Position numbers and translations under genes: made by a program. The notes under the pieces were generated by a model. That model was not told where the DNA came from. It saw only the letters and a program-made list of their open reading frames with translations, and did no database searches. This document shows, piece after piece, positions 143 to 218 of a DNA stretch of 325 nucleotides (positions are counted from its first letter, which is position 1; each line of letters begins with the position of its first letter). The DNA is from Escherichia coli (GTDB taxonomy: Bacteria > Pseudomonadota > Gammaproteobacteria > Enterobacterales > Enterobacteriaceae). The stretch lies in the NCBI RefSeq assembly GCF_003334385.1, contig NZ_QOWN01000204.1; one strand, given 5' to 3'.

Positions 143-187
143 TTCCGCACAACAAACTGAATAATAAAGATAAAAACCGCAAAAATG
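139..187. promoter_or_regulatory. AT-rich spacer (about 29% GC) with A/T tracts between sites II and III; possible promoter, intrinsic bend or unwinding element (unresolved)
   Basis: 14 G/C in 49 bp by direct count. T6 at 139-144, AAA at 154-156 and 166-168, A5 at 172-176 and 181-185. Weak -10-like hexamers: AATAAT at 160-165 on plus, TATTAT on minus (166-161). No -35 partner at 16-18 bp spacing on either strand. Confidence 0.3.
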
Positions 188-218
188 CCCGGGCAGCCAG
201 TTAACATGTTAACTGCCC
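186..218. promoter_or_regulatory. Site III: composite dyad - 10-bp palindrome TGCCCGGGCA (186-195), GC clamp GGGCAG (191-196) / CTGCCC (213-218), and 18-bp perfect palindrome CAGTTAACATGTTAACTG (198-215) made of two overlapping head-to-head motif copies
   Basis: Direct reading: 198-215 equals its own reverse complement. 191-196 is the reverse complement of 213-218. 186-195 equals its own reverse complement. The two GTTAAC hexamers (200-205, 208-213) are 8 bp apart centre to centre. Confidence 0.6.

What the first reader, a model, noticed from the sequence alone, without database searches (positions are those of the whole stretch)
186..218. Site III: overlapping head-to-head copies forming an 18-bp perfect palindrome in a GC clamp, next to a 10-bp CCCGGG-centred palindrome
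Two motif copies overlap by 6 bp with the AT ends at the dyad, the opposite polarity to site I. GGGCAG/CTGCCC can clamp the element as a hairpin or cruciform, and TGCCCGGGCA adds a second overlapping dyad. The same motif is therefore presented in everted (site I) and inverted (site III) arrangements, suggesting two binding modes, two proteins, or a recombination/processing site rather than a simple operator.
Basis: seen in the sequence. Interest (0 to 1): 0.6.

Follow-up and report, generated by a model that had tools for sequence, protein, structure and literature searches.

The report
Terminase-binding palindrome in a phage cos site
The palindrome lies about 40 bp inside the DNA-packaging (cos) site of a very common E. 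coli Shiga-toxin-type prophage and is most likely where the phage's small terminase protein binds, so it is an ordinary although not yet characterised part of a known kind of machinery.

Summary
CAGTTAACATGTTAACTG (198-215) is a perfect 18-bp palindrome (0.16% of shuffles) made of two of the window's five GTTAACAT units.

The window is the HNH-endonuclease/small-terminase (terS) intergenic region of lambdoid Stx-type prophages, present in 1,277 of 5,426 complete E. coli genomes. Genes read on the minus strand. A near-identical phage, Lys8385Vzw, has published 10-nt 3' cohesive ends that map to window 247-256. The palindrome is therefore +32 to +49 of the packaged genome, between the cleavage site and terS.

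Among 40 distinct relatives, the 16-bp core and the three other GTTAACAT units never vary. These relatives include terminase-less satellite islands that copy this cos site. The "GC clamp" and TGCCCGGGCA do vary, without compensation; a 10-bp palindrome is also expected by chance.

The repeat type changes with the TerS DNA-binding domain, while the cleavage site, HNH and TerL stay homologous. In shorter relatives the terS start codon sits exactly at the dyad centre.

Best reading: a cosB-like small-terminase recognition site (confidence about 0.7; binding not shown). It is not a hairpin, cruciform, terminator or operator. It is a new member of a known kind, of modest interest.

The parts
198..215 (.). 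Site III: perfect 18-bp palindrome made of two GTTAACAT units (GTTAAC cores at 200-205 and 208-213, 8 bp centre to centre). It spans +32 to +49 of the packaged genome, with the dyad centre at +40/+41. Proposed cleavage-site-proximal small-terminase (cosB-like) site.
   Evidence: present, non-random. (16-bp core invariant in 40 distinct phage and satellite sequences). (cores at +34 and +42 in classes A, B and C).
186..197 (.). TGCCCGGGCA palindrome and the GGGCAG arm of the 'clamp'. This is the most variable stretch of the cos region and is probably incidental.
   Evidence: most variable columns are 189-194. (TGCCCGGGCA in 4 of 12 variants, clamp in 3 of 12). (a 10-bp palindrome is expected by chance). 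(absent in the satellite).
216..219 (-). Other clamp arm (CCC) and flank. On the minus strand, CAGGGCAG aligns with the Shine-Dalgarno GGAGGGTG of relatives whose terS starts at the dyad, so it is probably a relic of that ribosome-binding site.
   Evidence: alignment of classes A and B. (variable columns 215-219).
247..256 (-). cosN: the 10-nt 3' cohesive end, CGCGCCCCCT on the minus strand. The nick on the minus strand falls between 247 and 246; the left genome end (+1) is window 246.
   Evidence: The Lys8385Vzw record starts at the base homologous to window 246 and ends ...CGCCCCCCCT. PhageTerm gave 3' cohesive ends with cos sequence CGCCCCCCCT (PMC7946995). The homologous end of Acinetobacter phage fEg-Aba01 is CGCCCCCCAT, gel-confirmed (PMC7354433).
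224..262 (-). Conserved cos core around the cleavage site: GGACACCGCGCCCCCT|CTCACGCAGAGAAAAAATTCCCG. It is shared by E. coli, Salmonella, Acinetobacter and Burkholderia phages with homologous TerL and HNH.
291..298 (-). G8 run (C8 on +), 44 nt upstream of the cleavage site. It is invariant in phages and satellites, and HK97 has a G9 run followed by GATCA 42 nt upstream of its genome end. Possibly a cosQ-like or nuclease-positioning element.
   Evidence: HK97 right end..
130..141 (+). Unit c (CAGTTAACATTT), core at +110. A distal member of the proposed terminase-binding array.
107..120 (+). Unit b (GGTTAACATTTGC), core at +133. One half of the everted pair (site I).
88..101 (-). Unit a (GCAAATGTTAACTG on +), core at +148. 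This is the last conserved element; satellite copies diverge completely below window 89, which marks the end of the functional cos site.
142..185 (.). A/T-rich spacer with short T/A tracts between the proximal dyad and the distal units. It is about 75% conserved in the satellites. Possibly a bent or bendable segment; no convincing IHF site.
1..17 (-). 5' end of terS (GTG CTG ACA ACG = MLTT). The Shine-Dalgarno GGGAGGAGG lies at 20-28.
   Evidence: annotation. (Pfam Terminase_2, residues 2-57, E 2e-8). (PHROG 641, terminase small subunit).
307..325 (-). 3' end of the HNH endonuclease gene (stop TAA at 309-307).

Best explanation
The palindrome is the cleavage-site-proximal part of a cosB-like recognition array for the phage small terminase (TerS), within the cos site of an HK97-style, HNH-dependent packaging module.

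Shown:
- The window is the HNH-terS intergenic region.
- The cohesive-end cleavage site is at 247-256.
- The palindrome therefore lies at +32 to +49 on the side of the DNA that enters the capsid first.
- Its 16-bp core and three further GTTAACAT units at +110, +133 and +148 are invariant.
- Terminase-less satellite islands copy all of these elements.

Inferred:
- The N-terminal helix-turn-helix domains of the multimeric TerS (Pfam Terminase_2 type, as in SF6/SPP1) bind the GTTAAC-containing units.
- The double unit at +34/+42 anchors TerS at a fixed distance from the cleavage site, so that TerL and the HNH protein make the two nicks 10 nt apart.
- The distal units, reached across an A/T-rich spacer, stabilise a wrapped nucleoprotein complex, by analogy with lambda R3-I1-R2-R1 and the SPP1 pac boxes.

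Dyad symmetry reflects two adjacent protein-binding units on duplex DNA, not an extruded hairpin.
For: Location:
- HNH, then the window, then terS, terL and capsid genes on the minus strand.
- Phage Lys8385Vzw is near-identical. Its record begins at the base homologous to window 246, and it has published 3' cohesive ends CGCCCCCCCT.
- A homologous end was gel-confirmed in Acinetobacter phage fEg-Aba01.
- In HK97 the TerS site lies at +15 to +29 on the same side of the cleavage site (PMC11331095).

Non-randomness.

Phylogenetic footprint:
- In 40 distinct phage and satellite sequences, the 16/17-bp palindrome core and the other three units are invariant while the sequence between them varies.
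- Cores sit at +34 and +42 in every class A, B and C sequence.

Natural experiment:
- A 9.7-kb island in E. coli CH427 has an integrase, a RepA helicase and a capsid/protease fusion gene, but no HNH, TerS or TerL. It carries the G8 run, the cleavage site and all five units, and diverges beyond unit a.
- This satellite-type cos is present in 50 of 5,426 genomes.

Covariation with TerS, while the cleavage site, TerL and HNH stay homologous:
- Classes A and B share the HTH motif AGYS.K.AR..GS.LAKDP and the GTTAAC units.
- Class D and Acinetobacter phages have a diverged HTH and AAGTTAAAG direct repeats at the same position.
- The single class E example has a TerS without the HTH and has no repeats.

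DNA-level constraint:
- In class B, the terS start codon lies at the dyad centre. Codons 2-3 are TTA ACA in 39-40 of 41 distinct sequences.
- A Burkholderia phage keeps TTA ACA at the terS start. From general knowledge (not measured here) TTA is a very rare codon in that GC-rich genus.

TerS N-terminus: Pfam Terminase_2, with weak matches to the SF6 TerS DNA-binding domain.
Against: - No binding, footprinting or packaging data exist for this site. The TerS assignment rests on position, conservation and covariation only.
- Classes D and E are few (3-4 and 1 distinct sequences), so the covariation is thin.
- In class B the right half-site is also constrained by coding (Met-Leu-Thr), and some other nearby codons are equally invariant.
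- HK97 TerS, the only structurally solved cos example, is unrelated in sequence and binds a non-palindromic 15-bp site by threading. The binding mode therefore cannot be transferred.
- The unit spacings (8, 68, 23 and 15 bp) are not helically regular.
Confidence: 0.7

Rival explanations
1. Evolutionary relic. The GTTAACATG units are duplicated copies of an ancestral terS ribosome-binding site and start (ATG TTA AC = Met-Leu-Thr) and have no present function. The palindrome is a by-product of the palindromic GTTAAC core.
For: In class B relatives the terS start codon is exactly at the dyad centre, and GGAGGG occupies the place of the window's CAGGGC. Units c and d share a 16-nt repeat, AGCCAGTTAACAT(T/G)TT (D2). 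The window's real terS start, GTG CTG ACA ACG, is a diverged version of the same sequence.
Against: Non-functional relics should decay. Instead the 16-bp core and all three distal units are invariant while their flanks vary, and they are retained at the same spacing in satellites that have no terS at all. Origin by duplication and present function as binding sites are compatible.
Confidence: 0.1
2. Structured nucleic acid. The element extrudes as a hairpin or cruciform, or acts in the late transcript as a terminator, attenuator or translational control hairpin.
For: A 61-nt segment (178-238) folds as an extended hairpin with A6/T6 ends at -12.7 kcal/mol as DNA, z -3.3. As RNA on the gene-sense strand it gives -18.5 kcal/mol, z -1.9, and T-runs follow. 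In class B the start codon lies in the dyad.
Against: The scan found no terminator-like site and there was no Rfam match. The 18-bp hairpin alone is only -3.4 kcal/mol. The clamp arms and the outer right arm vary without compensation, and the satellites lose them while keeping the palindrome core. An AT-rich 16-bp palindrome is a poor candidate for cruciform extrusion (general knowledge).
Confidence: 0.07
3. Binding site for a different protein: the HNH endonuclease, TerL, a host architectural protein (IHF or Fis), or a phage transcription regulator.
For: The fixed distance from the cleavage site would also suit a nuclease-positioning factor. AGTTAACATGTTA matches the IHF consensus with 2 mismatches.
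Against: The IHF match is no better than chance (115 of 200 shuffles reach as many matches as observed). Classes D and E keep homologous HNH, TerL and the same cleavage site but lack GTTAAC dyads; the repeat type tracks the TerS HTH instead. The only promoter-like hit is weak, on the antisense strand, and built from units b and c.
Confidence: 0.1

Closest known systems
Phage HK97 cos system (HNH gp74 + TerS gp1 + TerL gp2; TerS site at +15 to +29; PMC11331095)
   Same: Gene order HNH, cos, terS, terL. 10-nt 3' cohesive ends. TerL is homologous (23% identity over 489 aa, E 2e-11). A G8/G9 run lies about 42-44 nt upstream of the cleavage site. The TerS site lies just inside the left genome end.
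   Different: The TerS proteins are unrelated in sequence; the one here is Pfam Terminase_2 with an N-terminal HTH. The HK97 site is a single asymmetric 15-bp A-tract site read by a threading nonamer. Here there is a dyad of two GTTAAC units at +33 to +48 plus three more units up to +157.
Phage lambda cosB (gpNu1 sites R3-I1-R2-R1)
   Same: Several copies of one short motif in mixed orientations between the cleavage site and the small-terminase gene, with an A/T-rich spacer separating a proximal site from distal ones. It is the specificity determinant for the small subunit, and satellites copy the helper's cos site. (Established knowledge.)
   Different: Lambda makes 12-nt 5' ends without an HNH partner. 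gpNu1 is a winged-HTH protein of another family. No IHF site is detectable here. Here the proximal site is a perfect palindrome.
SPP1/SF6 pac site boxes bound by G1P (Terminase_2 family TerS)
   Same: Same Pfam family for the TerS DNA-binding domain, with weak PDB matches to 4zc3, 2cmp and 3zqp. Repeated boxes flank the cleavage site and are bound by a ring-shaped TerS. (Established knowledge.)
   Different: SPP1 and SF6 are headful (pac) phages of Gram-positive hosts, with boxes on both sides of the cut. Here the system is cos type with defined ends, and all units lie on one side of the cut.

Membership tests
cosB-type small-terminase recognition site of a cos phage | Lies next to the cohesive-end cleavage site, on the side packaged first, between the cleavage site and terS | tested here: met
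   Cleavage site at 247-256, palindrome at +32 to +49, terS start at +230.
cosB-type small-terminase recognition site of a cos phage | Conserved among phages with the same TerS and replaced when the TerS DNA-binding domain changes | tested here: met
   Classes A, B and C compared with D and E, which have homologous TerL, HNH and cleavage site. Classes D and E are small samples.
cosB-type small-terminase recognition site of a cos phage | Sequence-specific binding by the small terminase | not testable with these tools
   Needs EMSA, footprinting or a structure.
cosB-type small-terminase recognition site of a cos phage | Required for initiation of packaging | not testable with these tools
   Indirect only: terminase-less satellite islands retain the cleavage site plus all five units and nothing beyond them.
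HK97-type HNH-dependent cos packaging module | HNH endonuclease gene immediately upstream of cos, with terS and terL downstream | tested here: met
HK97-type HNH-dependent cos packaging module | 10-nt 3' cohesive ends | tested here: met
   Taken from the literature for a near-identical phage (PMC7946995) and for a homologous Acinetobacter phage (PMC7354433), and mapped onto the window. Not measured for this exact prophage.
HK97-type HNH-dependent cos packaging module | TerL homologous to HK97 gp2 | tested here: met
   BLASTP 23% identity over 489 aa, E 2e-11.
HK97-type HNH-dependent cos packaging module | TerS homologous to HK97 gp1 | tested here: not met
   No similarity. The TerS here is Pfam Terminase_2.
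Intrinsic terminator / conserved hairpin | G+C-rich stem directly followed by a T-run, with pairing maintained in relatives | tested here: not met
   The scan found none. The clamp is intact in 3 of 12 variants with non-compensatory changes, and the outer stem is lost in the satellites.
Lambda-type IHF-assisted cosB | IHF consensus site between proximal and distal terminase sites | tested here: inconclusive
   The best match in the spacer is at 150-162 with 2 mismatches, not above chance.
Known RNA family | Match to an Rfam covariance model | tested here: not met
   Only mir-214 at E 0.57, far below its gathering score.

The most novel reading that the evidence does not exclude
In this widespread phage lineage (E. 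coli, Salmonella, Burkholderia, Acinetobacter), the TerS recognition unit is ancestrally built into the first codons of terS itself: ATG/GTG TTA ACA, with the start codon at the dyad centre, +40 from the genome end. TerS binding would then both position cos cleavage and autoregulate its own translation. The Stx-type (class A) phages later expanded this single site into a five-unit array by duplicating the terS 5' end. A family of terminase-less satellites, which carry a capsid gene, copied the expanded array as a helper-specificity code.
Probability: 0.3. Interest if true: 0.5.

Novelty: new member of a known kind. Interest (0 to 1): 0.33.

Why it matters
This cos region is present in about a quarter of complete E. 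coli genomes and in many Stx1, Stx2a and Stx2c phages. Knowing which bases make up the packaging signal has three uses:
- It tells which DNA these phages can mobilise: plasmids, satellites and neighbouring defective prophages.
- It explains how a family of terminase-less islands can hitch-hike on them.
- It gives a compact, testable DNA target (16 bp plus three further units) for a Terminase_2-type small terminase in a cos phage. No protein-DNA structure exists for that combination.

It does not reveal a new kind of system.

Tried and rejected
- HK97 TerS site transfer: the window's TerS has no similarity to HK97 gp1, so the HK97 motif cannot be mapped across.
- Shigella phages SfI and SfIV: these are also cos phages, but their cohesive end (TGCCCGCCCC) is a different cleavage site, so they are not informative.
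- Full-text search for the overhang sequences returned only unrelated papers among the 20 listed.
- IHF consensus: not above chance.
- Terminator scan: none found. The promoter scan gave one weak antisense hit made of units b and c.
- Rfam: nothing.
- NCBIfam: no family for TerS, and only a sub-threshold IscB-like HNH match for the nuclease.
- PDB by sequence: only weak hits to the SF6 TerS DNA-binding domain (E 0.2-0.8).
- Small-ORF reading: ATG at 207 on the minus strand opens a 24-codon hydrophobic ORF (MLTGCPGIFAVFIFIIQFVVRKKC). It stops after 4 codons in the satellites, and a 1-nt deletion and a 1-nt insertion occur in two class A variants within or next to it. I treat it as a relic.
- GTTAAC as an HpaI restriction target: irrelevant to these hosts (general knowledge). 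Rejected.

Full report
**1. Observation.**
The window contains a perfect 18-bp palindrome, CAGTTAACA|TGTTAACTG, at 198-215. It also contains the 10-bp palindrome TGCCCGGGCA at 186-195, and GGGCAG (191-196) facing CTGCCC (213-218).
- GTTAACAT occurs five times: on + at 109, 132 and 200, and on - at 92-99 and 206-213. Shuffles give 0.00 expected.
- An 18-bp or longer palindrome arose in 32 of 20,000 shuffles.
- At least one palindrome of 10 bp or more arose in 28% of shuffles.
So the palindrome and the motif family are real, but the CCCGGG dyad is not statistically remarkable.

**2. Where the window comes from.**
- The window matches 1,277 of 5,426 complete E. coli genomes (1,242 of them over at least 80% of its length; best-hit identity 95% or more in all but about 40 records). 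It also matches 94 phage records, mostly Stx1a-, Stx2a- and Stx2c-converting phages.
- Annotation of an identical copy shows that the genes read on the minus strand: HNH endonuclease (stop at 309-307), then the intergenic region 306-18, then the terminase small subunit (GTG at 17-15), the terminase large subunit and the capsid gene.
- This is the gene order of HK97-type, HNH-dependent cos packaging.
- TerL is a distant homologue of HK97 gp2 (23% identity over 489 aa, E 2e-11).
- TerS is unrelated to HK97 gp1. Its first 57 residues match Pfam Terminase_2 (E 2e-8), with weak matches to the SF6 TerS DNA-binding domain in the PDB.

**3. The cleavage site.**
- Phage Lys8385Vzw has the same region. 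Its record ends ...GGACACCGCCCCCCCT and begins CTCACGCAGAGAAAAAATTCCCG..., which places the break between window 247 and 246 on the minus strand.
[quoted passage not shown] The window has CGCGCCCCCT at 256-247.
- Acinetobacter phage fEg-Aba01 has a homologous TerS. Its record starts at the homologous base, and it has gel-confirmed 10-nt 3' ends CGCCCCCCAT, which its authors describe as HK97 type (PMC7354433).
- The palindrome is therefore +32 to +49 of the packaged genome, with its dyad centre at +40/+41. It lies between the cleavage site and terS.
- In HK97 the minimal TerS site is at +15 to +29 on the same side of the cut (PMC11331095).

**4. Comparative test, not biased toward the palindrome.**
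I scanned IMG/VR for the cleavage-site core only (GGACACCGCSCCCCCTCTCA). Together with earlier loci these fall into five classes.
- **Class A (the window's type).** GTTAAC cores lie at +34, +42, +110, +133 and +148.
- **Class B (for example Salmonella phage FSL SP-016 and the E. coli TST3 prophage).**
  - The intergenic region is short.
  - The terS start codon is at +40, exactly at the dyad centre (ATG/GTG TTA ACA G).
  - A core is nearly always present at +42 (at +41 in a few 1-nt-shifted sequences), and a core that is often degenerate (GTAAAC or GTTGAC) lies at +34.
  - The dyad keeps 6-7 of 8 pairs.
- **Class C.** All five cores lie at the same spacing, but the element has no terminase genes.
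- **Class D (as in Acinetobacter phages).** Two or three direct repeats of AAGTTAAAG lie at about +30 to +60, and the TerS helix-turn-helix is diverged.
- **Class E (a single example).** TerS lacks the N-terminal domain, and there are no repeats.

HNH and TerL are homologous in classes A, B, D and E (HNH 34-70% identity, TerL 46-87%). The repeats therefore track the TerS DNA-binding domain, not the nucleases.
A Burkholderia phage with a 38%-identical TerS keeps CTCACGCGCAGAAAATTTCCCC and has TGTTAA-N5-TTAACA across its terS start.

**5. Footprint within classes A and C.**
Forty distinct sequences were aligned.
- **Invariant blocks:**
  - the G8 run;
  - the cleavage-site core through AAAAAATTCC;
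  - A-GTTAAC-AT-GTTAAC-T-G (window 214-198);
  - AAAAAATGTTAACT (unit c);
  - AAATGTTAAC (unit b);
  - GTTAACATTT (unit a).
- **Variable stretches:** 215-219, the GGGC of the 'clamp', and especially 189-194, the CCCGGG dyad.
- Of 12 distinct class A variants, the 16-bp palindrome is intact in 12, the 18-bp palindrome in 11, the clamp in 3 and TGCCCGGGCA in 4.
- Changes on the two clamp arms (GGGCAG to GGCCAG, GGTCAG or GGGTAG; CTGCCC to CTGTCC, CTTCAC or CTTCCC) do not compensate each other.

**6. The satellites.**
- In E. coli CH427 the class C copy sits at the end of a 9.7-kb island between yljB and clpS.
- The island encodes an integrase, a helix-turn-helix regulator, an Icd-like protein, a RepA-type helicase and a prohead-protease/capsid fusion. 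It has no HNH, TerS or TerL.
- Its cos copy matches the window from the G8 run to unit a at about 80% identity, then diverges completely.
- Fifty of 5,426 genomes hold this satellite-type cos.
- An element that must borrow a helper's terminase has kept exactly the cleavage site, the palindrome core and the three distal units. It has not kept the clamp, the CCCGGG dyad or the outer hairpin arm.

**7. Structure hypotheses.**

| Segment | Molecule | Energy (kcal/mol) | z-score |
|---|---|---|---|
| 33-nt element, + strand | ssDNA | -5.7 | -1.3 |
| 33-nt element, - strand | ssDNA | -7.0 | -1.9 |
| 18-mer alone | ssDNA | -3.4 | -2.5 |
| 61-nt segment 178-238, + strand | ssDNA | -12.7 | -3.3 |
| 61-nt segment, gene-sense strand | RNA | -18.5 | -1.9 |

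No terminator-like site was found and there was no Rfam match. Together with the lack of pairing conservation, this makes a hairpin, cruciform or terminator role unlikely.

**8. Mechanism proposed.**
- **Shown:** position, conservation, covariation with TerS and capture by satellites.
- **Inferred:** the helix-turn-helix domains of the TerS multimer bind the GTTAAC-containing units. The double unit at +34/+42 fixes TerS at a set distance from the cleavage site, where TerL and the HNH protein nick 10 nt apart. The distal units, across the A/T-rich spacer, complete a wrapped complex. This resembles lambda cosB (R3-I1-R2-R1) and the SPP1 pac boxes (established knowledge).
- An IHF site was sought in the spacer but is not supported.

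**9. An evolutionary side-light.**
- The unit ATGTTAAC is the beginning of terS (Met-Leu-Thr) in class B.
- In class B, codons 2-3 are TTA ACA in 39-40 of 41 distinct sequences. The Burkholderia phage keeps them too, although from general knowledge TTA is a very rare codon in that genus. This suggests selection on the DNA. Some other nearby codons are equally invariant, so the test is suggestive only.
- The window's CAGGGCAG aligns with the class B Shine-Dalgarno GGAGGGTG.
- The window's real terS start (GTG CTG ACA ACG) no longer carries the motif.
- Class A thus looks like an expansion of an ancestral single site that overlapped the terS start.

**10. Verdict.**
The site is processing-related and its dyad is conserved, but the clamp, cruciform and two-protein ideas are not supported.
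- The element is best filed as the proximal part of a cosB-like small-terminase site in an HK97-style cos module whose TerS is of the Terminase_2 type. That makes it a new member of a known kind.
- Direct binding and packaging tests are still needed.

Noticed in passing
window 291-298 (C8 on +, G8 on the gene-sense strand); HK97 right end L003:783-795: A G8 run followed by GATCA lies 44 nt upstream of the cleavage site. It is invariant in phages and satellites. HK97, whose TerS is unrelated, has a G9 run followed by GATCA 42 nt upstream of its genome end. It may be a cosQ-like or nuclease-positioning element common to HNH-dependent cos sites.
   Followed up: partly
window ~292-295; L131:2792-4250 (phage PPompW_132418): In the PPompW prophages an IS110-family ISEc20 is inserted at the C8 run. 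The tRNA genes and the Q gene follow the IS directly, so HNH and the lysis genes are missing. The cos core and terS remain, but the HNH partner is gone.
   Followed up: partly
L009:7962-17335 (E. coli CH427, between yljB and clpS); also L093, L114, L126: A 9.7-kb integrative island carries an integrase, an Icd-like protein, a RepA helicase and a prohead-protease/major-capsid fusion gene. It has no terminase, and it ends with a diverged copy of this cos site. It looks like a phage satellite that makes its own capsid protein but borrows the helper's terminase. Its cos type is present in 50 of 5,426 genomes. I did not establish whether it belongs to a described satellite family.
   Followed up: partly
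L006:1506-1508, L008:1509-1511 and 41 distinct class B loci; L132:56-70; L133:73-87: In relatives with a short cos region the terS start codon is exactly at the dyad centre (+40). The TTA ACA codons are kept almost without exception, including in a Burkholderia phage. The terminase site and the terS translation start overlap, which raises the possibility of autoregulation.
   Followed up: partly
window 207-133, minus strand: A 24-codon ORF (MLTGCPGIFAVFIFIIQFVVRKKC) starts at the dyad-centre ATG and ends in the TAA of unit c. Three of the five substitutions seen in its first ten codons among class A variants are synonymous in this frame. However, the ORF is cut to 4 codons in the satellites, and two class A variants carry 1-nt length changes in this stretch. 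It is probably a relic of the ancestral terS start.
   Followed up: partly
window 253: The cohesive end itself is polymorphic among close relatives (CGCGCCCCCT versus CGCCCCCCCT; 6 of 40 distinct sequences differ). I did not examine whether this affects annealing between co-resident prophage genomes or satellite-helper matching.
   Followed up: no
window 268-271 and 288-291: Two GATC (Dam) sites lie between the G8 run and the cleavage site, one directly abutting the G run as in HK97. The CGATCG at 267-272 is also kept in class B phages.
   Followed up: no
L046 (class E locus): One locus with the same cleavage-site core has a 105-aa TerS that lacks the N-terminal helix-turn-helix domain. Its terS starts at +38 and no repeats lie upstream. 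If it is functional, its DNA recognition must work differently.
   Followed up: no
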